Source: a virus (Duplodnaviria; Caudoviricetes). Taken from it: a stretch of 64,000 nucleotides of DNA. Shown one piece after another: positions 7,368-52,228 of this stretch; within the stretch, counting starts at the first letter, position 1, and the number at the start of each line of letters is the position of its first letter. The stretch spans positions 1 to 64,000 of IMG/VR virus record IMGVR_UViG_3300001528_000425. One strand, written 5' to 3'. Position numbers and translations under genes: made by a program. The notes below the pieces were generated by a model, which was not told the DNA's origin, made no database searches, and saw only the letters and a list, made by a program, of their open reading frames with translations.

Positions 7368-8126
7368 TTATTTGTCGGTTTCTTTGGAGACAAGCCGCAG
7401 AGTGTATTTGATGCACTTTCTATGGACGTTGTCGTCTTCATCGACATATGCCTGCTCCGTTTTATCGTATACCAACTCAAGGTTCTTGTTGATATAAGGC
7501 AGGTATTGAGCATTGATTTCAGCGATAGCCGCCTCCTCATCGATGACGTCACATTCCCTGACATCAAACTCCCATGACCAGCCTTCTTTGATCATGGAGA
7601 TGTACGCAGACTTTCATTTCAACTCGATGAATTGAATCACGTGAGGGAGCTGACGCAGGAGGAGATCGATCAGTTGATTCACGAGATGAACGGCGCTATC
7701 ATGAATTCATCTCCGAAAGATGCTAAGTTCGTGGTGCAGATCGGGTTCACGCCGATGTTGTCGTGCATACCCGCTCCCGGCAATATCTTCGGACCACTCC
7801 CTCCGTTCTATATCGAGCTCTTCCCAATCAACGAGGCGCGTATTCGGCAGCATATCCGTAAATCGAAACGCATCCGGACGAACACAATCTTCAATCAGAT
7901 CATGCACGGCTGCAACCAGTTCGATGGCACTGCAAAGTCTGCGTACATCAGGACGTTCCCGTATCGTATGAAGTAATCGTCCGGAATAGAAGTTGACGTA
8001 TTCCACCAGGCAAGTACCGAGGGCGAGGTAATGTTTACAATGCTTGGCATCAGCTGATTCGCTAGCGTTCATCCCAGCTTCATTGAGCAGGGCGTAGACT
8101 TCGACGTTGGGTTCGAAATGATTCAT
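7368..8126 (-). CDS. Hypothetical protein interrupted by an internal inversion (252 aa if 7599-7949 is flipped; 139-aa product 7707-8126 as assembled)
   Basis: ATG at 8126 with AAAGGAG RBS; ORF pieces 7707-8126(-), 7599-7949(+) and 7368-7598(-) join in frame on inversion. Confidence 0.75.
7599..7949. repeat. Perfect 16-bp inverted repeat bounding a 351-bp candidate invertible segment
   Basis: GATGTACGCAGACTTT at 7599-7614 and AAAGTCTGCGTACATC at 7934-7949. Confidence 0.9.
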
Positions 8127-35616: not shown

Positions 35617-35973
35617 CTTAAGAGAATACATTCTCTTCTTTGACTATATCTTCACCATCGATCTCGCGATCGGTCAGGTGTCTCTTGTTTGGGCTTGCGC
35701 CTACTCCCGTGTCCGGGATAGTCGATGAACCCGATCCTCCTTACGAAGGACCTCGGCTGCTGATTACACATTGTCACATGACCCTTAGCACCTGTTACCA
35801 GGCTTTTATTGCAGCATAGGTCGAGCTTTATGTTTCTTTCTGTCTTTCAACAACATTCACGCTTGCCGTTACCAGCTACGTTGTAGTACATTAAGCTACT
35901 AGTGTTTCCCAGCAATTAAAGAGATTTCGACTCATGGTTTCCCATGAGAAGAGGCCAATGTCTATTTTGACTA
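35617..35973 (-). ncRNA. Group I intron (357 nt, no homing endonuclease)
   Basis: On minus strand: P AATTGCTGGGAAA, Q AATCAGCAG, R GTTCATCGACTA, S AAGATATAGTC; 5' exon ends in U paired to G in P1 (AGGT/TA with TGGCCT); intron ends in G; removal restores the frame. Confidence 0.93.
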
Positions 35974-37399
35974 ACCTAACATCCTCATCACACACGATCT
36001 TCTGCACGGAGGACAATTTATCGGACTCCTTTAGGATCGGTACACCCGTACCTCTGGCGTTCAACGGATCGAGTACCGCACCACCTTGGTTGATGATGTA
36101 CTGATCGGTATCCTTCACCAACGGTTCACCGATACTTGCCGGAACCTTACCTTGAGGCAACAACCATTCATAGAAGGTATTCTTCAGCTGAACGGTTTGT
36201 TTGGAGAAGTCTTCCAACCTGGAAGGTCCGATCAAGTTCATCAAGTTCCTGACGTCATTGTTCTTCCAATTCATCAGGTACAAGATGGCATTGTCAACGA
36301 TGTTGTATACGGTATAACCAACGAAGTCCTTCGTTTGCATATCGTAGTGGGTGCGGTTCTGACCGAAGTCTAGCTTACCTGCTCCTAGTTCCTTGGCTCC
36401 AATATAATCCAACTTGTAGTTGACATCTCTACCTTTCGCCTTACGGAGACGTCCGTATAACTGCATGGCGTCGATGAACTGCGTATAGCCAGATAACTGG
36501 AACCAATCCCAATGGTCGGTGATATGATCTCCTGGTTTCCCTTTATCCTTGTTGTACTTGCAGATCCTGAGTCTTTTTGGTACTTCAGGATGACACATCA
36601 CATCAGCGGGATCTTCTCCTAAGAAGGTGAGTCTCTCGATGATGCGCGGAATATCGTAGCCCATGTTCCAGATGACTACGAAGTCTGGTTTGCATTGATG
36701 GATCTGTTGAAAGATCCACTTGATCACTTCGACTTCATGATCTGACTCGAAGTAATGGATGTTCAGGGGATGATGATCGTAGAGTTCCTGGATCTTCGGT
36801 TTTAAGGCATCTCTGAATTGTTTGTTGACTCGAGTTTCGAATTTCTTCTTAACTGCTTCAATTCCCTCCCCTTCTCGGAAGAACGGTTTGAAGATCGAGC
36901 AATAACAATTCCCATCTCCATTGATGAACGAGATCAGAATGATCTCGTTGTTTCCAACAACCGAAGACTCAATGTCAAGGGTTCCTACGTTGTATCCAGG
37001 AGGGTTCCTCGGATTCATTTTACGGAACATGCCTTTGATACGAACACCGATATCGATATCCGCACCATAGACATAAGGAGAAGTCATCAGCTTACGCTGA
37101 TTGAAATACCCATTGCCATAACCGACATTCTGTCCAAGTGCTTTCGCCAGGGTACGACCGATCTCACAGTACTTCGTGTTGAACATGTCGAGCTCGTCCA
37201 TGGGAGCATACTCTTTCTTTTCAGAATAGTTACGCCTCCCAGGTTTGGTTACCCATACCTTGACAGTAGGATCTTCCACGATCATTAACTCGGATACACC
37301 CGTGTCTACATTTTTGATATTCGCCACATATGCATCGTGGTCTCTACCAAGAGGAACGTAGACACCGTGAACGAATTGATGTGTCTGATACACACTCAT
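35974..37399 (-). CDS. Split family-B DNA polymerase exonuclease-bearing subunit (phiKZ gp82-like), exon 1; 586 aa spliced
   Basis: ExoI LDIES, ExoII WNMGYD, ExoIII YNIVD, GGAVLDP before motif A. Confidence 0.88.
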
Positions 37400-38843: not shown

Positions 38844-38929
38844 TGCCTCTCCAGTTCAAATGAATGTATCTGAAGAGTAGGTGAGACTGGGGTTATTTAT
38901 AACATAGAGGTAATTGTTAAATTTTAAAG

Positions 38930-39275
38930 ACACAATTCAGTCCCAACATGATCACATAAGAGTGTAGAAAGTTTCACCATGATAACCACCATATAGGTTA
39001 ACAAGGATGACTTATCTAGATACTCTTACGTGTTTGATTTCGGTGGAACCAAAGTTCCGATGGGTTTGTGGAATCTGCCGAGCCAGAGCAGGAGCGTGTA
39101 CTCCATAAACTGGCGTCAAGCGTCTTACAAGTAAGTCAAATGTCGAAAGCTTCATAGTGAAGTCCTCCTAACCAACTCAGGGAACAGTAGGTGCTGGCGG
39201 CACCTACTGTTCCCGTCTATTAGTTTATTTGAAATACGAAGGTAATTGATGATTGTGCGACCGACTGAATTGTGT
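38930..39275. ncRNA. Unrecognised structured element, copy A (candidate large ncRNA)
   Basis: 13-bp terminal inverted repeat, long bulged hairpin, conserved core shared with 48617-49037; no ORF. Confidence 0.7.
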
Positions 39276-39286
39276 AGAACATCAAT

Positions 39287-39796
39287 TCATTTCAAATCCT
39301 CTCCGAAATACTTCTGATAGAACTCATCGACAGAAGGTCTCCCAATGGTATCTGGTAAGGAATCAAATGCTCCCGGGAATCTGGATACTTTCAACGGTAC
39401 GACGGGTTTAGGAGGCTTAATTCTATGATGCATGTGAACCGACGTCGGCTTCCGCTGTATCGGCTTCATCTCATATTTTTGGATAGCTTCCGAGACGCAG
39501 TAATCGTTCTTATGGTTGTTGAGTTTCATCCAGTCCTCTGGACTGATAGAACTTTCCATCATGAACGTTACCACCGTCTTACGTACTTTGTCGTAGATAA
39601 CAGGATACCAGATTCCCTTGAAGTATACGAATTTCTGAATCACACGTAGAGACTGACGTTCTACAACAACACTTAATACAGCACTCTGACAGTGTTTGGA
39701 TATCACTTCCAGATCCCTGGTTGTCAGTGCAAGTCCGTAACGCTCCAGTGCTCTACGTTTAGCATGATGAATTTCAGATTTCTTCTTTGAAGCCAT
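39287..39796 (-). CDS. Hypothetical protein with HAxxRxxER motif
   Basis: 169 aa; HHAKRRALERYG resembles RelE-like/DUF4258-type phage proteins (weak inference). Confidence 0.55.
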   Translation of the reverse strand: MASKKKSEIHHAKRRALERYGLALTTRDLEVISKHCQSAVLSVVVERQSLRVIQKFVYFKGIWYPVIYDKVRKTVVTFMMESSISPEDWMKLNNHKNDYCVSEAIQKYEMKPIQRKPTSVHMHHRIKPPKPVVPLKVSRFPGAFDSLPDTIGRPSVDEFYQKYFGEDLK

Positions 39797-39841
39797 CTTC
39801 GCGTCTCCAGTTCATACATAACCTCTCTTCCTTGTTAGATG

Positions 39842-39891
39842 AAAAAATAAAAGAAGAATCCGGGAGGGAGAGGGATATCCCTCTCCCTCCC
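39842..39891 (-). terminator. Perfect hairpin plus offset TTATTTTTT terminator (representative)
   Basis: GGGAGGGAGAGGGATATCCCTCTCCCTCCC; similar hairpins near 293, 2193, 5113, 7318, 14140, 15783, 17283, 19381, 27375, 28442, 30716, 32121, 33022, 35240, 37470, 44619, 46553, 47958, 49350, 51582, 52184, 56866. Confidence 0.75.
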
Positions 39892-39917
39892 TAGAGATTC
39901 ACTGAGCCGTTGGCGGA

Positions 39918-40376
39918 TTATTTCTTCTTGAATGCCGCTTCGATCTCAGCAGCGCACTGAGCCAGCAGGCCGCCTTCTTTCCGCAGTTCGCGGTTGAAGT
40001 TGCGGTTGATCGTGATGGAGGTCTGGCCGTACTTCACGCTGCGGTACTCTTTGCCGGTGCCGGGAGTCTTGCCTTCGCTGATCACTTCGCCCTTCATCTT
40101 GATTTCGGCGGAATCATTACCCTGGCCGAGCTTGGCGAGCTGCGGGACTTTGGTCTCGATGACTTTGTCTTTCATCAGCGGAAGGACCGCTGCGGAGACA
40201 GTGTCGACGGCGTCGATGACGACTTTGCGGACTTCTTTGGTGGCGCCGAGTTCGGCGAGCGCTTCGTCGTAGTCATTGCGAGACATGGTGAACTGGTTCT
40301 TGGCCGGATCATAAATGACCGGCTTTCCGAGAACGGTGAACTCCTGGGTTGCGACGGTTTCTTTGTCTTTGCTCAT
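39918..40376 (-). CDS. Highly expressed early protein, possibly DNA-binding
   Basis: Own TATATTAC promoter and terminator, strong GC3 bias, GKTPGTGKEY resembles the HU/IHF arm. Confidence 0.6.
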   Translation of the reverse strand: MSKDKETVATQEFTVLGKPVIYDPAKNQFTMSRNDYDEALAELGATKEVRKVVIDAVDTVSAAVLPLMKDKVIETKVPQLAKLGQGNDSAEIKMKGEVISEGKTPGTGKEYRSVKYGQTSITINRNFNRELRKEGGLLAQCAAEIEAAFKKK

Positions 40377-40491
40377 TTTGGAACTCCTTTTGGTTTATTG
40401 GTGAGCGGACGAAAAAGTTAACCATTTCTTTCTTCGTCTTTCAATTTAGTAATATATGCACGGAAGCTCTATGAGATTTTCCGTGTACGTA

Positions 40492-41055
40492 TTATTTTAC
40501 AAGGGTCGGATCTTTGGTTTCCACCACAGTTCCGTTAGCGTAGATCACTTCACGGAACGACCATCCGTGCGAGTAGTCTGTCTCAAACGGAGGAATGTCT
40601 TCCTCTCGTGTGGTAAGTATGAAGGTATCCAGGGCGTCGATGAACTCCAAGAAGAATTTATCGTAGATACATGTAGACGCATCCTCAGATTGATCCACTT
40701 CGAACAGATAACGCCAGATCAATTTCTCGCCAATCTGTTGGTCGTACTGACTGGTAAGTAGATCTACTTTCTCACCGTGAAGATAAACGGTTGGTTTTCC
40801 ATTTTCCCTGGCGAGCACACCATGGATCGTCTGATTTTCTGGAATGACCTGTACGGAGATAATCTCTGATCCGAATTTCTTACCGAAGAAATATAATGGG
40901 ATCAGGTGAGAGAAGAAACCACCATGCAGTACGATCGCTTCACCAATGATCAGTTCTCCGAATCTCACGAGAACCAATCTCGCGTTCTTGAAATGATATC
41001 GATCAATGAAGGTAATCTGAACGTCTGTAAGTCTTCCTAATTTATCGGTTGTCAT
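40492..41055 (-). CDS. Hypothetical protein
   Basis: 187 aa, AAGGAGG RBS. Confidence 0.65.
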   Translation of the reverse strand: MTTDKLGRLTDVQITFIDRYHFKNARLVLVRFGELIIGEAIVLHGGFFSHLIPLYFFGKKFGSEIISVQVIPENQTIHGVLARENGKPTVYLHGEKVDLLTSQYDQQIGEKLIWRYLFEVDQSEDASTCIYDKFFLEFIDALDTFILTTREEDIPPFETDYSHGWSFREVIYANGTVVETKDPTLVK

Positions 41056-41087
41056 TGGTTATCCTCCTTTCCTAGGAAAGGGCGTTG

Positions 41088-41726
41088 CTACTTACCTCCA
41101 GGTGTCCCTTGATAAGTAAGTTTGTTGTTTTTACGATTGAGATGGAACTTGCGTTCCGTTTTGTCGATGCGCCAGAAGCGTCGTTCATTCGCTGGCTTCG
41201 CATCGATTTCGGCTTGTCTGGCTTCGAGGTTGATCGGGTCGAGAATCAGTTCGAAGGCATCCCTACTGATCGTAAGGATCGGACGTCTGGATTCAGTCAA
41301 TTTCCCAGCCATATCCTTGTAGATTTTCCACAAGTACCATAACTTCTTAGAAACCCTTCTTCCGGGTCTTCCGTGATTTTGGAAATCTCTGACTAGCATA
41401 TCTGTCATGTATCCAGAGCAGATCATCGTTCCAGAGCGGAGATCCAAAGAAGCCCAATAGGCATCTGCACCTTTGGGATCTTTCAGGATCGCATGGATGG
41501 ACAAGAAGATCTTGTTATCATCCATCCCGATCGTCTGGGCGATCTCTTCCGGATTGGGAAGAAGATTTGCCAGTTGTACGGATGATGCCAAGAACTGCTC
41601 CCAGATGGCAAATGCCAGCCACCGAAGATCCTTCGGTACAACGTGCGCCACCCAAGAAGGAAATAACTGGATCAGTTGCTCCAGAGAAGGATGGAGCTCT
41701 TCAACATGTTCGTTGGTTTCACTCAT
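41088..41726 (-). CDS. Hypothetical protein
   Basis: 212 aa, AAGGAG RBS. Confidence 0.65.
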   Translation of the reverse strand: MSETNEHVEELHPSLEQLIQLFPSWVAHVVPKDLRWLAFAIWEQFLASSVQLANLLPNPEEIAQTIGMDDNKIFLSIHAILKDPKGADAYWASLDLRSGTMICSGYMTDMLVRDFQNHGRPGRRVSKKLWYLWKIYKDMAGKLTESRRPILTISRDAFELILDPINLEARQAEIDAKPANERRFWRIDKTERKFHLNRKNNKLTYQGTPGGK

Positions 41727-42031
41727 GTAGGTTCTCCTTATACTGCCTTTACATTGGTATGATATATTCTACTTCTGTAAAGAATAACTTGATTTTACTG
41801 AAGTTCTGGGAGTATGGAACGATACTCCTCGACATTCTTCAGGGTTTGTCCAACGGAAGCATTCAGATCAATGATCGTCACATCCGAATGTTCATGATTC
41901 ATTCCTCCTTGAATTAAGTTAACATTTAGCTTGGGTTCATAGTTGTAATATATGTGTTATTAAGTGTAGAAATTTAAGGATCAGTGGTATGATATGAGTT
42001 TAAAATACGAACAACTATCAAGGATACTAGC

Positions 42032-44611
42032 ATGCGATTCTTATCACTTGAACTGAAAGGTTATTTGCCTCTCAGTCATTGTGGGACTCATCATCTCACG
42101 GCAGGATTTGAAGATATTTGCACAGCATTCCTCGGGAACAATGGAACCGGGAAATCTTCTATCTTGAGGACATTGACTCCCTATCCGGAGACTAGAACAG
42201 ATTATTCCAAGAACGGATACTGTAAGAAAGTCATCGAGCACGAAGGTCATACCTACGAGTTGATCTCAGACTTCAAGAATGCCACCAAAGCTCATTCCTT
42301 CATCAAGGACGGAATAGAGCAGAACATATCCGGAGCCACTGAAACGCAAACAGAATTGTGTAACGAAGCATTTGGGTTCAGTCAGATGATCGAGACACTC
42401 ACATCTGGCGGGTACGATATGTGCAATATGAAGAGAGCAGAGCGGAAAGAGCTGTTGATGTCAACATATCCTTCCGATCTTTCATTCATTCTGGAATATC
42501 ACAGGAAAGTTCGATCCCAGATCAACATGCACAACAATAACCTGAAGATGCTACGGGAACGAGAGCACACCTTGAAAGGTAAGTTGTTGGACAACGATCA
42601 GTTACAGGATCTTTATAAGTTCCAGAAGGATCTTAACGTATTAGCGAACGACATCGATCGTTTTATTCTACTCATGGAGCAGGATAAGAAGAGATTTGAA
42701 TCCGACCCACAGTATTCTGAAGCTCTCAGAAAGTTCAGAAATGGAGAACTGATCGATGTGGATGATCTCGTCCGACAGTGCTACGATGTCCGGAATCGTG
42801 CTTGGGCTTGTCGCAGAGAGCATCCGGATATCTTTACCGATGCGGATTTCTTCACGGAATATCGAGTAAAAGCCCAGGAGACAACTCGTCTGGAGCAGGA
42901 TATCGCTGAGAATGAACAGAGTATCCACAAAACCAGAGAGGAACTGGAGGAGTACGAGAAATACAAAGATCTCAACATCGAACAAGAATTAGCCACTCTA
43001 ACCAACCGACAGGAGTGGTTACATAACGAAATCAATAAACTTCACGTCGACGAGAGTTGTCCGAAATGGTCCAGAGAAACCCTGGAACGTGCTGAAGTCG
43101 AGTTCCCTGTATTAAGGGATCTTTGCATCGAAATCCACGGGATGAACTGTACCGTCTGGAGTAGAGAAAAGCTTCATGAAGCGCAGACCGATATCCAGGT
43201 AAAAACCAGACAGATCCAAAACATCCGGCAAAATCTCGTGGCAGCAGAAACCAATCTGAGGAATCTCAAAGCCAGACAGCAGAATGAAAACAACTATACG
43301 ATTCCTCGTGGTTGTGTGATGACCTGTCAGCTGAAGAATTCTGTTCTTAAGATGCAACAGAGGACGCAGTCTGAACTCGACAAATGGTCGTCTGAAGTCA
43401 GTGATTTAACAGACGCAATTACATCTCTTGAATCTTCGTTAGAGGAGTCAAAACAGGCTATCCAAATGCCCAGCCTTGCTATGCCTAAAATCGAGATGAT
43501 TCAAGGTATTATACAAGGCTATAACGGGGGTAAAACGGTCTTAAATGATCTCGATGTAATCGACGTGTTAAATGAAGATCCGTTCAGTATCTCCAATAAC
43601 TTCCTTAAACTGATCAACGGCAATAAGGTGATGATCACTCGTCAGGAATATGAGAAAGAACTCATGATGACCCAGACGAAGATCAGCGCCTTAAAGACCG
43701 CACAATCAGCCGCTAAGGAGTTACAACTGATCTCCAAAACCATCTACGAGAAACAAACAGCGTTATCATTGTTGATCCAACAGTACGATGGACAGGTAAA
43801 ACATCTTGAAGTGATGAAGACGAAATGTCAAAAGCTGAAAGAGATGAGCGAACTTGTCGAGCGTATCACGATGCTAACCAAGAATTACCAGGAGTTCTCG
43901 AAGGCGAGTTGGGTTATCGCTCGTATTGATTTTGATAATGAGATCATTCGGGAGTATACTGCTATTAAGCAAGTGGTCTACGAGAAACTAAGAGAGATTG
44001 ATACAACCATTCAAGAACAGGAGAATTGGTTAACTCGTCTGAACGATGAGATCATGCCGAATATTCGTTCCATTGAAGCAGAAGTGAAAGACTGGATTGC
44101 CATTGAATCTGGTCTGTCTCCAAACTCAGGTATTCCTCACGTCTACATGGTTCGTTATATCAACCGATTGATCACTCGTGTGAACGAGTTTATCAAAGCT
44201 GTTTGGTACTACGACATGGAGTTGGTGTATCTGGATGAAGACAAACCTTTGGATTATGGTATCCAAGTCATGATCAACAAGAACAGCATCGTCAAAGATC
44301 TAAGTATCTTGTCATCCGGTCAGAAGGCAATGGTATCGCTAGCATTCACATTAGCGATCTGCATGGACCGAGGCTACGCTACCAAATATCCGATGAAGAT
44401 GGATGAAGTTGATCCGGCTCTCACTGAAAATCACCGAATTCGGCTAACGAATCTGATTTCTGATTGGATACAGAACAAACAGATCACGCAACTGTTCCTG
44501 GTAAATCACTTTGTGATCCATACAGGTATGACAGATTGTGGAGTGATTTGTTTATCTACGGAAGGAATCGTGGTTCCAGCTGAATACAACAAACATGTTA
44601 CAATCAAATAA
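42032..44611 (+). CDS. sbcC: SbcC/Rad50-like SMC ATPase
   Basis: GNNGTGKS Walker A, long coiled coil with central CxxxC, LSSGQ signature, MDEVD Walker B, VNH. Confidence 0.92.
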   Translation: MRFLSLELKGYLPLSHCGTHHLTAGFEDICTAFLGNNGTGKSSILRTLTPYPETRTDYSKNGYCKKVIEHEGHTYELISDFKNATKAHSFIKDGIEQNISGATETQTELCNEAFGFSQMIETLTSGGYDMCNMKRAERKELLMSTYPSDLSFILEYHRKVRSQINMHNNNLKMLREREHTLKGKLLDNDQLQDLYKFQKDLNVLANDIDRFILLMEQDKKRFESDPQYSEALRKFRNGELIDVDDLVRQCYDVRNRAWACRREHPDIFTDADFFTEYRVKAQETTRLEQDIAENEQSIHKTREELEEYEKYKDLNIEQELATLTNRQEWLHNEINKLHVDESCPKWSRETLERAEVEFPVLRDLCIEIHGMNCTVWSREKLHEAQTDIQVKTRQIQNIRQNLVAAETNLRNLKARQQNENNYTIPRGCVMTCQLKNSVLKMQQRTQSELDKWSSEVSDLTDAITSLESSLEESKQAIQMPSLAMPKIEMIQGIIQGYNGGKTVLNDLDVIDVLNEDPFSISNNFLKLINGNKVMITRQEYEKELMMTQTKISALKTAQSAAKELQLISKTIYEKQTALSLLIQQYDGQVKHLEVMKTKCQKLKEMSELVERITMLTKNYQEFSKASWVIARIDFDNEIIREYTAIKQVVYEKLREIDTTIQEQENWLTRLNDEIMPNIRSIEAEVKDWIAIESGLSPNSGIPHVYMVRYINRLITRVNEFIKAVWYYDMELVYLDEDKPLDYGIQVMINKNSIVKDLSILSSGQKAMVSLAFTLAICMDRGYATKYPMKMDEVDPALTENHRIRLTNLISDWIQNKQITQLFLVNHFVIHTGMTDCGVICLSTEGIVVPAEYNKHVTIK

Positions 44612-44661
44612 ATAACGCTAACTAAGGTAGGGATCATCCGATCCCTACCTTAGTTAGTTCT

Positions 44662-45594
44662 TTATATGGAAAATGTGACGGAGTTCTTGTCGTACTGGTA
44701 AGCAACCGTACGACGTTTACCGTCTTTCGTGAATATCAATCCGTTCTCTCCGTATTGATCAACTTGAACAAATTCCGGAGTAGTGCTGTTTGAGTATCTC
44801 GGAGATTTCACGATATCGTACCGGTATCCCTCCATACTCATCGGGAGAGTAACCAGGAATCGAAACCCTCCTTGTTCATTGCGATTACCGCCACTTACTT
44901 CAATGACGCCAGTGCCGGTTTTTCGTATGCAGACGATTCGCATGCAATCGTTGATTTTAAATACAGCCAGTGCACATTGCTGGTCACTGAGGAAAATAAG
45001 TTTGGAGCAAACTAACTCCGAGTCGGTTTGCCCATCGATCACACCGGTAGGTTCGGTTGCAGCAAGGTACAGTGCGATCAGAGTGTCGATGCGTTCGGAC
45101 GTCGGCAATTCACCGATGGTTTCGAAGTTGCGATCGTGAACACATAGACCAACGAAATCGATCATAAAACGTCCTTGTTCCAGTGCAGAAAGAGTGACAA
45201 CAGAAAGATGTCGCAGATCTCCTCCTCGCATCACAGAACACAGTACTCTGTTTCGACCACACAAATGGAATACATATTCATTGGGGTCTGTTTCTGATAT
45301 CGGACCAGCGTACATACCAGATACCTGCGGCCGTAATCGATATTCGGTTTCTCCAAGATCAGAACCGATCTTGATCCGTGTGGCATTGGTATCGAGCCCT
45401 ATCTGCTCATTCGGTGTATAGAACTTCATAACGAAGTTTCGATCTTTGATCTTGAAATTGAAACACTGTTCGGCGTCTGTAATACGCTCTCGTGTTTCTT
45501 CCAATTCGAATTTGAGATGACCTGATTTGTCGAGCGCGCGGGATGCATGGCATCCCAACGCTACACCAGCGTAAAGCATAAGACGGTTGAACAT
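44662..45594 (-). CDS. Hypothetical protein, possible lipoprotein
   Basis: 310 aa; N-terminus MFNRLMLYAGVALGC has a lipobox-like ending. Confidence 0.55.
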   Translation of the reverse strand: MFNRLMLYAGVALGCHASRALDKSGHLKFELEETRERITDAEQCFNFKIKDRNFVMKFYTPNEQIGLDTNATRIKIGSDLGETEYRLRPQVSGMYAGPISETDPNEYVFHLCGRNRVLCSVMRGGDLRHLSVVTLSALEQGRFMIDFVGLCVHDRNFETIGELPTSERIDTLIALYLAATEPTGVIDGQTDSELVCSKLIFLSDQQCALAVFKINDCMRIVCIRKTGTGVIEVSGGNRNEQGGFRFLVTLPMSMEGYRYDIVKSPRYSNSTTPEFVQVDQYGENGLIFTKDGKRRTVAYQYDKNSVTFSI

Positions 45595-45716
45595 AATGAT
45601 CCCCTATGTAAGTTGTTGGAATAACCTCGAATAAGCAGACAAGATGCAATACTGCGGAAATTGCCTAGCATAATATGTTAAATTATTAAAGAATAACCAT
45701 GTGAAGGAGCCGAACC

Positions 45717-46532
45717 ATGCATTCAACATTAACTAACATTCTGGCTCGTGTAACTCACACGATTCACCCTGAACTTCTCAATCTGGGTATGCGGATAGCC
45801 CAACGTTATGGAGATCCTGTCAATAACACCACTGAGTTCGTTCTGAAGAAGATCCTCCGTGAACGAGTTCTTTTGGACTGTAACATCTCCGGAGGTCCTA
45901 TCAAATACATTGTTCTCAGACTGAAATGGAAAGAGAACGTGTTTCCGGAACTTACTCCATATGCCATGGATGATGGTGGATTCGATTTGTATCGTATTCC
46001 TCCGGAAGCCAGAGATAACCTGCCACTGACCCAAGTGATTCGGGTTTCTTATCCATACAGCACAGTCGGAGACGTTGCGACCGTATATGCCAACGAAGGA
46101 CAGTATAGCGTTTTGGCAGCAGCCAATAGCATGCTGGATTCGTTCACTCTTGCATCGGAAGCGAACCCTCCTCTCTGTTCTCTGCTGTCAGGCGATATCG
46201 TTAAGATATTCCCCAGTCAAAATTCCCATATCGATTGGGTGCTGACCTGTCGTACTTCTTATGATGAGAATTTCTCCAACTTGGATGTCAGTGCTGTACG
46301 CACCATCTGCAAATTGACTGAGCTGGCAGTCAAAGCCTACATCCATACGAATCTGTATATCTCGATCGATCGAGCTGCTCAGGAGTTTGGTGTGGACGTT
46401 AGCACGATCCGTCAGGCAGTGGAAGACTGTCGCGATGCCAACCAGATGTATGATGAGCAACTGAACCAATGGCAAGGAACTGCTCTCATGGACCCGGAAG
46501 CACGAGCGATCTACACCATGTTCAATCTGTAA
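45717..46532 (+). CDS. Conserved phiKZ-like virion structural protein
   Basis: 271 aa; YRIPPEAR and AVKAYIHTNL recall the conserved gene next to sbcC in phiKZ-like phages (recollection). Confidence 0.6.
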   Translation: MHSTLTNILARVTHTIHPELLNLGMRIAQRYGDPVNNTTEFVLKKILRERVLLDCNISGGPIKYIVLRLKWKENVFPELTPYAMDDGGFDLYRIPPEARDNLPLTQVIRVSYPYSTVGDVATVYANEGQYSVLAAANSMLDSFTLASEANPPLCSLLSGDIVKIFPSQNSHIDWVLTCRTSYDENFSNLDVSAVRTICKLTELAVKAYIHTNLYISIDRAAQEFGVDVSTIRQAVEDCRDANQMYDEQLNQWQGTALMDPEARAIYTMFNL

Positions 46533-46607
46533 CAGAATTATGTACAAAATAACAGTTAGGGTGTTGGGACTTAGTCCCAACACCCTAACTGCCCTATAGG
46601 AAGGTCT

Positions 46608-47867
46608 TTAGTTGTTGTAATCAAAACTCAGCAAGATGATGTAGAGGATAAATGCGATCTTCAAAGACGCTTTCGTCGCAGGTCTTTCTGATACTTTCAA
46701 GGTCTCCACGAAATTGGCAACACTCTCCTTTACCAGCAGAACACCAGGATCGGTGATGCGGGAACTCCGATACAGATCTTTTGCTTTGTTGAGGATAGCG
46801 ATTCTTACTTTCATGTCCACTGTACCGGAGAGGATACACGCACGATATGTCTTCTGGATGATCGCATCGATCATAGCGGCATACCCGATGATGATCTTGC
46901 CATCTTTACTCATATCATTCTGCTTATGTTTCTGGTATTGAACCAGAGCCATAGAACTGAACCCGAGGAGTACTGTTCTCATTGCATCCGGACGAACATT
47001 CGGTACCATCTTGGTGATCATATTGATCAGAGTGTGCTTGACGAACTCGTTGGCGTTGAGAGATTTATTTGTGATATTGGAGATCATGACATCATACGTT
47101 GCCACGAGATCTTTCACAGTTTTCTCTTCTCCACGAGTATCGATCAATGTGGAGGTACCGATACGATTGTTCTTCTGTAGATTGTCGTAGTACTCATTGA
47201 TCACCAACCGGAGTTTGGTGCGGATACGAGTCTGGGCATCTGTAATGATGTAGAGAACTTTTTGATCCGGAGCGAAGGTGAACAAGCTGTTGTAATGGAT
47301 ACTCTGCTTATCGAAGATATCCTTACTACGCGCTTCGATGATCAGTTTCCAAGTATTCGTCTCAGGTTTGATGATGTCGAATTTCTTGGACATCTGATCG
47401 ATAGTAGCTTGCATGACTTCTAAGTTAGCTCCATACTTCAATCTGTGGTTCACGACTGAAGTAAAGAACTTGTAATGCATCATCTTGAAGAGGACCATCA
47501 AGATCTGTTGTTGCTGAGGAACACTTACTTTTACGGAGTGTAAAGTGCAATAAGCTGCCCATACTGTGAGTAAATTGTACAAGTCGGAGATAACCTTAAA
47601 GTCCTGGTTCACCGACTTGCACTGTTTGATCGTTTTGCTGAACTCATCTTTGTCCACTCCAAGGATATCGAACAAAGCATTAACGTCTTTGTTCAAGAAG
47701 TGAACCGGATGGATACCGATCAAAGGACTGTTGAAAGCTTCCGGGTTGTTGTCCCGGACTTCATAGGAAATACACCACTTAACCAGTGCGTCGTGAACAC
47801 GTTTGTTGATATCAAGATTGCACCGGCTAAGCAGCAATTCTTTCAGAGAAAGATTGACTGATGCCAT
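46608..47867 (-). CDS. Conserved jumbo-phage protein of unknown function
   Basis: 419 aa; YKFFTS, ITDAQTRIR, YRSSR; late-type promoter upstream. Confidence 0.65.
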   Translation of the reverse strand: MASVNLSLKELLLSRCNLDINKRVHDALVKWCISYEVRDNNPEAFNSPLIGIHPVHFLNKDVNALFDILGVDKDEFSKTIKQCKSVNQDFKVISDLYNLLTVWAAYCTLHSVKVSVPQQQQILMVLFKMMHYKFFTSVVNHRLKYGANLEVMQATIDQMSKKFDIIKPETNTWKLIIEARSKDIFDKQSIHYNSLFTFAPDQKVLYIITDAQTRIRTKLRLVINEYYDNLQKNNRIGTSTLIDTRGEEKTVKDLVATYDVMISNITNKSLNANEFVKHTLINMITKMVPNVRPDAMRTVLLGFSSMALVQYQKHKQNDMSKDGKIIIGYAAMIDAIIQKTYRACILSGTVDMKVRIAILNKAKDLYRSSRITDPGVLLVKESVANFVETLKVSERPATKASLKIAFILYIILLSFDYNN

Positions 47868-48001
47868 AATGATAAATCCCTGTTGGAATAGTTGTTATAC
47901 GCTATAAGACATAGGATGGTTCCACTACCGTAGAATGAACAAAAAATAAAAGAGGACGAGGGAGGGAGAGGAGCATATGCTCCTCTCCCTCCCTGTATCG
48001 A

Positions 48002-48313
48002 TTACTCGATCACGTCGGCGACTTCATCGGGGATCGCCGGAACTTCCGGGACACTGGTGTCGCCGCTCTGGCATTTCTTCACGATGAGTGCGATGGTTCC
48101 GACCACGGCAACGGCGCCGAGAGTCCACAGTCCGATCTTGACGAATTTGTTCATGGGTTTCTTCTCCTTGGGTTCGACCTGAATTTCCGGAACATCGACG
48201 ACGATTTCCGGTTTCTCTTCGGTGACGGTCTGCGCTTTGGCTTCCTGTTCCTTGACCGCAGCTTCGATGTCGATGCCCTGTCCGAATTCTTTCTTCTCTT
48301 CGTTCATTTTCAT
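48002..48313 (-). CDS. Small acidic membrane protein
   Basis: 103 aa, TM IGLWTLGAVAVVGTIALIV, strong codon bias. Confidence 0.7.
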   Translation of the reverse strand: MKMNEEKKEFGQGIDIEAAVKEQEAKAQTVTEEKPEIVVDVPEIQVEPKEKKPMNKFVKIGLWTLGAVAVVGTIALIVKKCQSGDTSVPEVPAIPDEVADVIE

Positions 48314-48372
48314 TTCTCCTAGGTTTGGTGATGGTAAATTGTTGTTTGGTTGTTATTGGTTAATTGTTGAAA

Positions 48373-48510
48373 TTACTCAGCGTCTTCAGTCCCTTCCGGA
48401 CCGTTGAAGTTGTAAGACGTATCGATCCTGTGCGTCTCGTTGCCAGCAAGAGTACCGGCAACCAGAAGACCAAGACCGAGTCCGACCATGAAGTAGCAAA
48501 GCTTTTCCAT
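48373..48510 (-). CDS. 45-aa membrane peptide (not in ORF track)
   Basis: MEKLCYFMVGLGLGLLVAGTLAG..., AAGGA RBS, after promoter at 48574-48581. Confidence 0.6.
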   Translation of the reverse strand: MEKLCYFMVGLGLGLLVAGTLAGNETHRIDTSYNFNGPEGTEDAE

Positions 48511-48616
48511 AATAAACAATGTCCTTTCGATTCGATTGTTGTTTTAAGTTTCTTTTTGGTTAACTTCACGAATGTAATGTATACGTGAGTTTAGTTGATT
48601 GACACTAATGTTGTAA

Positions 48617-49037
48617 TACGAGTTCGATCCGAATAGATGTGAGGTAAGTTATATCCGGATGAGAGTTAGAGCAGACGGTACGATCGTGAACTTACCTCTA
48701 CACGATCACCGAGTTCATTTTACTGTAAGTAAATAATTACATCCTCCTAGCCATTGTATAGGCTAAGATAGGAATGATCACTTACTTACAGTTACATGAA
48801 CTACTTTGTTGCAAGCAAAATTCTGCTCTGTGAGTAAGATCTGCCTTGCCACGGCAGGAGCGAAAGATCCGTACCGTGGTGTAAGCTGTCTTACAAGTTG
48901 ATTGAATGTGGAAACATGCATTGGCATTCTCCTATCTAGCTTAGATCCTCCTAGGGTGCCGCTAGCACCCTAGGAGGATCGCACTATTTACATTTAATCA
49001 TAGGTAATTGCTTTCAGGGCGACTGATCGAACTCGTA
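48617..49037. ncRNA. Unrecognised structured element, copy B (candidate large ncRNA)
   Basis: 13-bp terminal inverted repeat, long bulged hairpin, extra 10-bp loop pairing, core shared with 38930-39275. Confidence 0.7.
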
Positions 49038-49044
49038 GTGATTC

Positions 49045-49191
49045 TTAGTTCAGGTAAGCTTTCTTACCACGTTCGATTAATTTCTCAGCCTTGCGATAGG
49101 CAACGATGGTCACTCCTGCAACAACGATGACACCTACAAGACCAACCTTGAAGAGTGTCTTCGCATCTACTAGTATAGCCATGCCTGTCAT
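49045..49191 (-). CDS. 48-aa membrane peptide (not in ORF track)
   Basis: MTGMAILVDAKTLFKVGLVGVIVVAGVTIVAYRK..., AGGAAGG RBS, after promoter at 49320-49327. Confidence 0.6.
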   Translation of the reverse strand: MTGMAILVDAKTLFKVGLVGVIVVAGVTIVAYRKAEKLIERGKKAYLN

Positions 49192-49386
49192 AGTCACACC
49201 TCCTTTGAATAAAGAAAGAGGTCATGATTCATGTGAACCTAACCAGAGGTACGCCAATACCCGGAAAACGTACACGATGAATCATGACCAAAATTAATTA
49301 TTGTACTAACTTCACCTAAGTAATGTATACTCGAAAAGAAATGAATGACATCTAGACGGAGGGTATCCCTCCGTCTAGATGCTTGA

Positions 49387-51489: not shown

Positions 51490-51619
51490 ACGTACACCTT
51501 GTGTGGTTATAGTTGTTAGACTACTTGACGAGCTAGTCAACAGCATAAGATGATAACGATGACAAAAAATAAACCAGAGAACGGGGAGAGGGTGGTAGCC
51601 ACCCTCTCCCCGTGTTCGA

Positions 51620-52085: not shown

Positions 52086-52228
52086 AATTAAATCTCCTTA
52101 AGGTTAAATTGTTTTATGTACTAACTTCACCTAAGTAATGTATACATGAAATACCTCGATCGACATAAATAAAGAAAAGAAGATAGGTACTCCAGGGGGA
52201 ACGCCACCCCTGGAGTACCTAGTCTTAA

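What the first reader, a model, noticed from the sequence alone, without database searches (positions are those of the whole stretch)
38930..49037. Two covarying copies of an unrecognised 346/421-nt structured element: candidate new jumbo-phage large ncRNA family
Seen: the ORF-free intervals A (38930-39275) and B (48617-49037) share one architecture in the same order (plus strand). (i) A perfect 13-bp closing stem whose sequence differs completely between copies (ACACAATTCAGTC/GACTGAATTGTGT vs TACGAGTTCGATC/GATCGAACTCGTA). (ii) An 80-90-nt bulged hairpin capped by TAACC-accatata-GGTTA vs TAGCC-attgtata-GGCTA (compensatory pair, 8-nt loop ending TATA). (iii) A small hairpin. (iv) A conserved core ATCTGCC..GCCA..GCAGGAGCG..TCC.TA..TGG.GT..AAGC.GTCTTACAAGT..AATGT.GAAA..CTCCTA, with stems GCCAG/CTGGC vs CCACGG/CCGTGG. 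(v) A perfect 15/16-bp hairpin with GGTGC-N5-GCACC apex. (vi) AGGTAATTG, then GCGAC one base before the closing arm. Each element ends within about 10 nt of the stop codon of a minus-strand gene. Inference: pairing conserved while sequence diverges points to selection on a nucleic-acid fold. I find no hallmarks of tRNA, tmRNA, RNase P, SRP, or group I/II introns. Terminal repeats around a core plus long hairpin loosely recall retron msr-msd, but no reverse transcriptase is in the window. Strand is unresolved because G-U evidence is mixed.
Basis: partly seen in the sequence, partly recalled or inferred. Interest (0 to 1): 0.9.

Follow-up and report, generated by a model that had tools for sequence, protein, structure and literature searches.

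The report
Structured micro-gene cassettes in jumbo phage
The two "non-coding RNA" copies are real, covarying structured elements, but their conserved core is a 47-residue protein gene on the opposite strand, so they are members of a small family of tightly folded micro-gene transcripts found so far in one clade of uncultivated jumbo phages, with function still unknown.

Summary
The stems, hairpins and motifs are at the stated coordinates and far exceed chance. The interpretation needs three corrections.

1. The intervals are not ORF-free. The "conserved core" is a 47-49 aa ORF with a Shine-Dalgarno site on the minus strand. It shows coding periodicity (differences at codon positions 1/2/3 = 914/681/1595) and pN/pS of 0.16-0.6.
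2. The RNA strand is the minus strand. It folds better in 11 of 11 copies, and the closing stem has 12 G.U pairs against 1 A.C.
3. There are more than two copies. This 235.6-kb phage has four; the two outside the window had already been noted on the minus strand by other first readers of this scan. A related 238-kb phage has four matching copies, and there are a few metagenomic variants.

No Rfam, Pfam, PHROG, PDB or defence-family match was found. Neither genome has a reverse transcriptase.

The shared layout is: early-type promoter or upstream stop codon; 5' arm of an 11-17 bp closing stem; conserved leader; perfect 14-16 bp hairpin; SD/AUG hairpin; micro-ORF; long hairpin over the stop codon; 3' arm.

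My best reading is a paralogous family of end-sealed, highly structured early mRNAs for a basic micro-protein. The predicted SD accessibility is ordinary, so hok-like translational silencing is not supported. This is a new variant of a known kind, of moderate interest.

The parts
38930..39275 (-). Cassette A, whole element (346 nt), read on the minus strand
   Evidence: Minus-strand MFE is -127.8 kcal/mol, z = -8.8.
39263..39275 (-). A: 5' arm of closing stem P1. It begins 11 nt after the stop codon of the upstream 169-aa gene (39287-39796, minus strand).
39215..39262 (-). A: leader with the conserved GTCG...CAATTACC segment.
39180..39214 (-). A: P2, a perfect 15-bp hairpin with a 5-nt loop
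39163..39168 (-). A: Shine-Dalgarno GGAGGA, 7 nt before the ATG, inside the small SD/AUG hairpin P3
39012..39155 (-). A: micro-ORF of 47 aa plus stop.
38950..39032 (-). A: P4, a long bulged hairpin pairing the last codons and stop codon with the 3' UTR. The apex holds the conserved CTATA (38992-38996). Limits are approximate, taken from the MFE.
38930..38942 (-). A: 3' arm of closing stem P1
48617..49037 (-). Cassette B, whole element (421 nt), read on the minus strand
   Evidence: Minus-strand MFE is -169.5 kcal/mol, z = -13.7.
49025..49037 (-). B: 5' arm of P1. It begins 7 nt after the stop codon of a small membrane-protein gene (49045-49191, minus strand). That gene is itself driven by an early-type promoter motif at about 49320-49329.
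48944..48980 (-). B: P2, a perfect 16-bp hairpin with a 5-nt loop
48778..48927 (-). B: micro-ORF. It is 49 aa from the first ATG. It is 47 aa from the second ATG at 48921, which has the better SD spacing (SD 48927-48932) and matches the other copies.
48713..48801 (-). B: P4, a long hairpin over the last codons and stop codon, with CTATA at the apex (48757-48761)
48630..48712 (-). B: extra 3' domain of additional hairpins. It is absent from A and present in variable form in copies C and D and in most copies of the related phage.
48617..48629 (-). B: 3' arm of P1. The next early-type promoter motif follows at about 48574-48583.

Best explanation
A and B are two of four ancient paralogous cassettes in a phiKZ-like jumbo phage. 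Each is transcribed on the window's minus strand, either from an early-type promoter (TATA[T/C]ATTAC-N4-5-TGA) or as the tail of a short early operon. Each encodes a conserved, basic 47-49 aa protein of unknown fold.

The transcript folds into a compact, conserved architecture:
- a closing stem P1 of 11-17 bp that pairs its 5' and 3' ends;
- a conserved single-stranded leader motif;
- a perfect 14-16 bp hairpin P2;
- a small hairpin P3 carrying the SD and AUG;
- a long hairpin P4 pairing the last codons and stop codon with the 3' UTR, tipped by a conserved CUAUA.

Shown here: the ORF is a real gene, the RNA strand is the minus strand, P1 and P2 are kept by compensatory evolution, and the family is old, since each copy here has a best-matching partner copy in a relative whose terminase is 63% identical.

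Inferred: the sealed ends and stable hairpins make a discrete, nuclease-resistant, long-lived message, possibly released from the operon transcript at P1, so the micro-protein is produced through infection. The RNA fold may also have a role of its own. The biochemical function of the micro-protein is not known.
For: Coding:
- A minus-strand ORF with an SD is present in all four genomic copies.
- 18 residues are invariant among the four paralogs.
- Differences by codon position are 914/681/1595. pS is near saturation (0.54-0.9) while pN is 0.14-0.43. Close pairs give pN/pS of 0.17-0.21.

Strand:
- The ORF strand folds 5-30 kcal/mol better in 11 of 11 copies, and z-scores are better on the minus strand (against 14, 15).
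- P1 has 12 G.U cells against 1 A.C.

Structure:
- RNAalifold recovers P1 and P2, with 24 of 29 pairs showing changes on both sides.
- In a register-corrected count, P1 has compensatory changes at 11 of 11 positions and P2 at 13 of 14, with 167 of 168 cells Watson-Crick.
- P3 and P4 appear in every individual fold.

Family:
- There are four copies in this genome and four in a 238-kb relative, plus Logan and metagenome variants.
- Copy pairs match by sequence as A~122k, B~141k, C~194k and D~2k. Three pairs are reciprocal best matches. 194k is marginally closer to its own genome's 141k copy (0.67 against 0.65 to C).
- C and D are syntenic with their partners.

Promoter:
- The motif occurs 25 times on the minus strand and never on the plus strand.
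- It lies directly upstream of copy C and, in full or variant form, of the related phage's copies.
- In that phage, 3-4 T follow the 3' arm. This fits a discrete RNA with paired ends.
Against:
- The predicted SD/AUG accessibility of the cassettes (mean unpaired probability 0.40) equals that of 60 ordinary genes of the phage (0.40, p = 0.65). The fold therefore does not obviously gate translation, and 'stability' is a default explanation rather than a demonstrated one.
- P2 has no G.U pair in 168 cells, and its loop is exactly reverse-complemented between near-identical relatives in two of four lineages. Perfect palindromes of 13-18 bp are also this phage's general terminator style. P2 may therefore be a DNA-level or terminator-type feature rather than a family-specific RNA domain.
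- The micro-protein has no detectable relatives or confident fold.
Confidence: 0.6

Rival explanations
1. Bifunctional RNA. The end-sealed, roughly 350-430 nt transcript acts as a structured RNA in its own right, for example as a decoy, sponge or scaffold, or in a complex with its own micro-protein. It also serves as the message for that protein, in the manner of known dual-function RNAs.
For: - The RNA architecture is specific to this gene family. No other gene of the 235-kb genome has such closing stems.
- Single-stranded motifs are conserved beyond what helices need. These are the leader GTCG...CAATTACC and the CTATA at the P4 apex, which is kept even where its structural role differs.
- The fold does not lower SD accessibility, so it seems to serve something other than translational control.
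- The four paralogs have been kept over a long time.
Against: There is no partner, target or activity to point to. All conserved non-coding parts can also be read as stability or processing signals. The best-conserved stretch is the CDS.
Confidence: 0.15
2. Type I toxin-antitoxin-like module (hok/Sok or aapA/IsoA style). The micro-protein would be a toxic or host-shutoff peptide. Its mRNA would be kept inert by a 5'-3' long-distance interaction until processed, with a cis-antisense RNA as antidote.
For: - The architecture resembles the type I systems described in PMC6733600: a small ORF under 50 aa, an mRNA of about 350-430 nt, a 5'-3' long-distance stem, several module-specific copies per genome, and a hairpin at the SD.
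- In the 194k copy of the relative, the 3' end is also complementary to the SD over 11 bp.
- On the plus strand, P2 is followed by T-rich tails like this phage's terminators. It could therefore end an antisense RNA.
Against: - The peptide is basic and has no transmembrane-length hydrophobic stretch (sequences).
- The SD is not predicted to be more occluded than in ordinary genes.
- No sigma-70-like promoter and no phage early promoter lies on the plus strand inside the cassettes.
- The anti-SD feature is present in only one or two lineages.
Confidence: 0.1
3. Translocatable DNA module, or a DNA-level element. The inverted repeats and perfect palindrome would act in DNA, for example in recombination or modular shuffling, cruciform formation, or as an origin- or pac-like site. 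The ORF would be a passenger.
For: - Two of the four cassettes sit at different places in the two phages. B lies downstream of the terminase operon, while its closest match lies upstream of it. A and its partner have unrelated neighbours.
- B is bracketed by copies of the early promoter, two of them identical over about 28 nt. This recalls the promoter/stem-loop cassettes of T4-type phages (PMC2839356).
- The P2 loop flips are DNA-level events.
Against: - The terminal repeats differ completely between copies, so no transposase-type recognition is possible.
- They contain G.U but almost no A.C pairs, so selection is on one RNA strand.
- Partner copies share the inner part of the arms and differ by compensatory changes.
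- The copy number has stayed at four in both lineages.
- The ORF is under purifying selection.
Confidence: 0.08
4. One reading: a large non-coding structured RNA on the plus strand, a new ornate ncRNA class.
For: The plus strand also folds well (z = -7.0 and -10.6), because perfect helices are strand-symmetric. There is no Rfam match.
Against: - The minus strand folds better in 11 of 11 copies.
- Wobble pairs are on the minus strand.
- The core is a conserved minus-strand ORF with an SD and codon periodicity.
- Promoter motifs are all on the minus strand.
Confidence: 0.03

Closest known systems
Type I toxin mRNAs with a 5'-3' long-distance interaction (hok/Sok of plasmid R1; aapA/IsoA of Helicobacter pylori; PMC6733600)
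   Same: Small ORF of about 30-50 aa. Highly folded mRNA of a few hundred nt whose two ends pair. Local hairpins at the ribosome-binding site. Several sequence-specific copies per genome.
   Different: The peptide here is basic and not hydrophobic. The predicted SD accessibility is ordinary. No antisense RNA gene was found. The host is a lytic-type jumbo phage rather than a chromosome or plasmid. Membership is not established.
Dual-function RNAs that are both regulators and messages, such as Staphylococcus RNAIII/delta-haemolysin, SgrS/SgrT and SR1/SR1P
   Same: A structured RNA of several hundred nt, with long-range helices, that encloses a very small ORF.
   Different: Those RNAs have known base-pairing targets and conserved unpaired seed regions. 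Here no target is known, and the strongest conservation is in the ORF.
PeSL promoter/stem-loop cassettes of T4-type phages (PMC2839356, PMC4122927)
   Same: Small early genes of unknown function bracketed by early promoters and stem-loops. Their position changes between related phages.
   Different: PeSLs are direct repeats of one shared motif that recombine. Here each cassette has its own unique inverted repeat, which pairs within the RNA, and the cassette content is one conserved gene family.
Large ornate bacterial and phage ncRNAs (GOLLD, ROOL, OLE, HEARO/omega RNA) and retron msr-msd
   Same: Size class, many helices, terminal pairing and occurrence in phage genomes.
   Different: No covariance-model match. 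The element is protein-coding. Neither genome has a reverse transcriptase.

Membership tests
Any Rfam family (4227 models, including group I/II introns, GOLLD, ROOL, HEARO, 6S, tmRNA, RNase P) | Covariance-model score at or near the gathering threshold | tested here: not met
   Only chance-level hits (under 24 bits) fall in the two intervals. The scan did find the true group I intron at 35620-35990, which serves as a positive control.
Type I toxin-antitoxin | Small ORF (under about 60 aa) in a structured mRNA with a 5'-3' long-distance interaction | tested here: met
   ORF of 47-49 aa. P1 is present in all 12 copies and variants examined.
Type I toxin-antitoxin | Hydrophobic, membrane-active toxin peptide | tested here: not met
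   The sequences are basic, with no hydrophobic run of transmembrane length.
Type I toxin-antitoxin | Ribosome-binding site sequestered in the full-length RNA | tested here: not met
   The unpaired probability of positions -14 to +3 is 0.17-0.48 (mean 0.40), the same as in 60 control genes (0.40, p = 0.65). This is a prediction, not a measurement.
Type I toxin-antitoxin | Cis- or trans-encoded antisense RNA antitoxin | tested here: inconclusive
   No promoter-like site lies on the plus strand. Middle and late promoters of this phage are unknown, and no RNA data could be obtained.
Retron msr-msd | Adjacent or genome-encoded reverse transcriptase | tested here: not met
   PF00078 is absent from both phage genomes, and the control genomes were detected.
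Group I / group II intron | Interrupts a gene, with a catalytic core recognisable by a covariance model | tested here: not met
   Searches give no match. The flanking genes are complete, with their own SD and start or stop. RuvC Pfam coverage begins at residue 12.
MITE or TIR transposon | Terminal inverted repeats shared among copies (a transposase recognition site) | tested here: not met
   The arms are unrelated between paralogs and evolve by compensatory change.
PeSL-type shuffling cassette | The same promoter/stem-loop motif as a direct repeat on both sides of the gene | tested here: inconclusive
   B is bracketed by early-promoter copies, but A and D are not. No circular or recombinant forms could be tested.
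Ribbon-helix-helix or other small DNA-binding fold (a lead from the sequence pattern only) | Profile or structural match to the fold | tested here: inconclusive
   No Pfam, NCBIfam or PDB profile hit. AlphaFold2 gives a single helix over residues 5-35 (pLDDT 83) from a shallow alignment, which is not informative.

The most novel reading that the evidence does not exclude
The cassettes would be a jumbo-phage-specific class of bifunctional RNAs. On this reading they are discrete early transcripts with base-paired ends. Their conserved fold would have its own activity, for example as a decoy, sponge or scaffold, perhaps as a ribonucleoprotein with the micro-protein they encode. Four module-specific versions would have been maintained over long evolutionary time.
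Probability: 0.15. Interest if true: 0.75.

Novelty: new variant of a known kind. Interest (0 to 1): 0.45.

Why it matters
This is a clean example of a "structured ncRNA" call that turns out to be a micro-gene on the other strand. ORF length cut-offs hide such genes.

What remains is still unusual. A family of four paralogous transcripts each has its own unique end-to-end closing stem and a conserved multi-helix fold around a 47-residue ORF. The family is conserved between jumbo phages whose terminases are only 63% identical, and it has no relatives among 1.84 billion representative proteins.

If the fold proves to control RNA life-time, processing or a second RNA-level activity, it would add a new kind of post-transcriptional module to phiKZ-like phage early gene expression. 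That field has few known cis-RNA elements. It would also give a defined, compact test object of about 350 nt.

Tried and rejected
- **Rfam.** Scans at the gathering threshold and at E <= 10 gave nothing for the intervals. No tRNA or tmRNA was found.
- **Phage DNA similarity.** A megablast of the 11.5-kb region found no match.
- **Split-gene or intron idea.** Rejected, because the flanking genes are complete.
- **Retron.** No reverse transcriptase in either genome.
- **Phage-encoded RNase III or Rnl2 RNA ligase**, which might have explained end pairing by processing or ligation. Neither was found.
- **Micro-protein annotation.** No hit in Pfam, PHROGs, PADLOC, NCBIfam or a PDB profile search. 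The ESM Atlas gave no usable hit.
- **AlphaFold2 monomer.** A single long helix, not informative for fold search.
- **Homodimer prediction (collected).** No verdict. It is not used as evidence either way.
- **Wider family search.** Two scans of viral contigs and one of metagenome contigs with the protein alignments, plus two large protein searches, found only the one related phage lineage and its variants. The five next-closest jumbo phages, with terminase identity of 36-54%, gave no match to the micro-protein.
- **Other long-range inverted repeats** in this genome and two relatives, at 7599, 87897 and 134700 here and several in the relatives. They lie in coding sequence, or in an ordinary gene plus terminator, and are not further cassette families.
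- **P4 apex as a promoter.** CTATA (TATAGG on the plus strand) shows no genome-wide promoter-like enrichment. The hexamer is under-represented.
- **MAFFT/RNAalifold on the P3 and P4 sub-regions.** This failed because of indels, so P3 and P4 rest on the individual folds.
- **MAFFT alignment of P2.** It was out of register by one column for one row, so pair counts were made with a register-corrected script.

Full report
**Setting.** The window is the first 64 kb of a 235,559-bp IMG/VR virus record with direct terminal repeats and 47% G+C. The large terminase is only about 33% identical to those of cultured phiKZ-like jumbo phages. The neighbourhood holds a family-B DNA polymerase interrupted by a true group I intron, a RuvC-like resolvase and the terminase. 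Almost all genes here are on the minus strand.

**Checking the observation.**
- the perfect 13-bp terminal inverted repeats of unrelated sequence;
- the perfect 15/16-bp hairpin;
- the long bulged hairpin whose 8-nt loop ends TATA on the plus strand;
- the AGGTAATTG motif and the shared core.

Both intervals fold far better than dinucleotide shuffles. A genome-wide count found six perfect inverted repeats of 13 bp or more with a 340-450 nt span, where about 0.4 is expected. Four of them have the same internal anatomy: A and B in the window, C at 98194-98607 and D at 150833-151227. Notes from other first readers of this scan had already flagged C and D as a minus-strand structured RNA with an embedded micro-protein. 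That lead prompted the next test. No Rfam family matches either interval, even at E <= 10.

**The core is a gene on the other strand.**
- All four copies carry a minus-strand ORF of 47-49 codons preceded by a Shine-Dalgarno sequence. The four products share 18 invariant residues.
- Across 11 sequences, differences fall 914/681/1595 on codon positions 1/2/3. Synonymous sites are near saturation (pS 0.54-0.9), while non-synonymous divergence is 0.14-0.43. The closest pairs give pN/pS of about 0.2.
- This is the signature of a translated gene under purifying selection. Some of the small "core stems" are simply complementary Gly (GGN) and Pro (CCN) codons and are not kept in the other copies.
- In B, the second ATG (48921) has the proper SD spacing and gives a 47-aa product like the others.
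- The intervals looked "ORF-free" only because the ORFs are under 50 codons.

**Strand.**
- The ORF strand folds 5-30 kcal/mol more stably than its complement in 11 of 11 copies.
- In the closing stem, 12 cells are G.U on the ORF strand against a single A.C.
- An over-represented motif, TATA[T/C]ATTAC followed 4-5 nt later by TGA, occurs 25 times on the minus strand and never on the plus strand. It fits the roughly 10-nt AT-rich early-promoter type described for jumbo phages with virion RNA polymerases (PMC7598289).
- The motif lies directly upstream of copy C and, in full or variant form, of the relative's copies.
- A, B and D instead begin 7-11 nt after the stop codon of a small upstream gene that has such a promoter further upstream.

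**Family and age.**
- Searching with the micro-protein alignment found one related 238-kb phage with four copies, one of them carrying a deletion.
- It also found a handful of near relatives in Logan and metagenome assemblies.
- Nothing else turned up among 1.84 billion representative proteins.
- Five more distant jumbo phages, with terminase identity of 36-54%, gave no match to the micro-protein.
- Whole-cassette similarity pairs the copies as A~122k, B~141k, C~194k and D~2k. Three pairs are reciprocal best matches. The 194k copy is marginally closer to its own genome's 141k copy (0.67) than to C (0.65).
- C and D are syntenic with their partners. B and its partner both lie next to the terminase operon but on opposite sides. 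A and its partner have unrelated neighbours.
- The four paralogs therefore probably predate the split of two lineages whose terminases are 63% identical, and two of them have since changed place.

**Architecture, read 5' to 3' on the minus strand.**
- *P1, the closing stem.* It is 11-17 bp, present in all 12 sequences, and of unrelated sequence between paralogs. All 11 aligned positions show changes on both sides, and partner copies share the inner bases and differ by compensatory or wobble changes.
- *Leader.* It carries a conserved, apparently unpaired motif.
- *P2.* This is a perfect 14-16 bp G+C-rich hairpin in which 13 of 14 positions covary. It has no G.U pair in 168 cells, and its loop is exactly reverse-complemented between near-identical relatives in two lineages.
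- *P3.* A small hairpin holds the SD and AUG.
- *Leader-CDS pairing.* A pairing between the leader and codons 5-8 is seen in most individual folds.
- *P4.* A hairpin of about 30-45 bp pairs the last ten or so codons and the stop codon with the 3' UTR. It is tipped by a conserved CUAUA.
- *3' domain and end.* A variable 3' domain precedes the 3' arm of P1. In the related phage, 3-4 T follow the arm directly.

**What it probably does.**
- The layout resembles type I toxin messages such as hok and aapA, whose two ends pair to keep the RNA inert (PMC6733600). Three of that family's defining features were tested and not met or not found. The peptide is basic rather than hydrophobic. The predicted accessibility of the SD/AUG equals that of 60 ordinary genes of this phage (0.40 against 0.40). 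No promoter-like site for an antisense RNA was found.
- The retron idea fails for lack of a reverse transcriptase. The phage encodes no RNase III or Rnl2 ligase of its own.
- The reading that fits all the evidence is a family of discrete, end-sealed, highly folded early messages for a micro-protein. The fold would protect the RNA or guide its processing. This step is inferred, not shown.
- The fold is unique to this gene family in the genome and includes conserved unpaired motifs. A second, RNA-level function therefore remains a live possibility, at about 15%.
- P2 should be read with caution. Perfect 13-18 bp palindromes are this phage's ordinary terminator style, and the loop flips show that DNA-level processes keep such palindromes perfect.

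**Limits.**
- No expression data could be obtained.
- The micro-protein has no recognisable fold or relatives.
- P3 and P4 rest on individual folds, because indels defeat simple alignment.
- Only about eight independent sequences exist.

**Verdict.** The "non-coding, plus-strand" interpretation is wrong. The element is a new, narrow family of structured micro-gene cassettes: a new variant of a known kind and of moderate interest.

Noticed in passing
window 35620-35990 (-): A group I intron (Rfam RF00028, 57.2 bits, E = 7e-12) interrupts the family-B DNA polymerase gene. The 502-aa ORF at 35891-37399 carries the exonuclease domain.
   Followed up: partly
whole genome; in the window at e.g. 5779, 19429, 32994, 35206, 40449, 41945, 48574, 49320, 52135 (minus strand): The early-promoter-like motif TATA[T/C]ATTAC-N4-5-TGA occurs 25 times on the minus strand and never on the plus strand. 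The same bias is seen in two related jumbo phages (13:0 and 14:0). The copies at about 52142 and 49327 are identical over about 28 nt.
   Followed up: partly
L019:1663-1700 vs L021:2942-2979; L013:1662-1701 vs L025:2331-2370: The 6-nt loop of the perfect hairpin P2 is exactly reverse-complemented between near-identical relatives, while the 14-15 bp arms are unchanged. This is a small palindrome-mediated inversion, seen in two of four lineages.
   Followed up: partly
whole genome, e.g. window 49349-49381, 51581-51613, 52184-52221: Terminator-like hairpins of this phage are nearly all perfect palindromes of 13-18 bp (one of 26 bp), followed by moderately T-rich tails. Dozens occur per genome in this phage and in two relatives.
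   Followed up: no
window 7599-7949: A 16-bp perfect inverted repeat bounds a 351-bp segment inside coding sequence (G+C 0.50). It has no similarity to the cassette family. I confirmed only the repeat.
   Followed up: partly
L017 (related phage, copy at about 2.5 kb) vs L026 and L027: One cassette copy in the 238-kb relative has a deletion of about 126 nt. It removes the last codons, the stop codon and hairpin P4 but leaves both P1 arms. Intact versions of the same copy exist in two other assemblies.
   Followed up: partly
window 49045-49191 (-) and 48360-48533 (-): Cassette B is flanked by two very small genes that appear to encode single-pass membrane proteins. Small membrane or signal-peptide proteins also follow the cassettes in the related phage.
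   Followed up: no
window 38908-38916 (+): A third copy of the leader motif (AGGTAATTG on the plus strand) lies just outside cassette A, in the 5' untranslated region of the RuvC-like gene. It may be a remnant of a cassette leader or a shared 5'-UTR signal.
   Followed up: no
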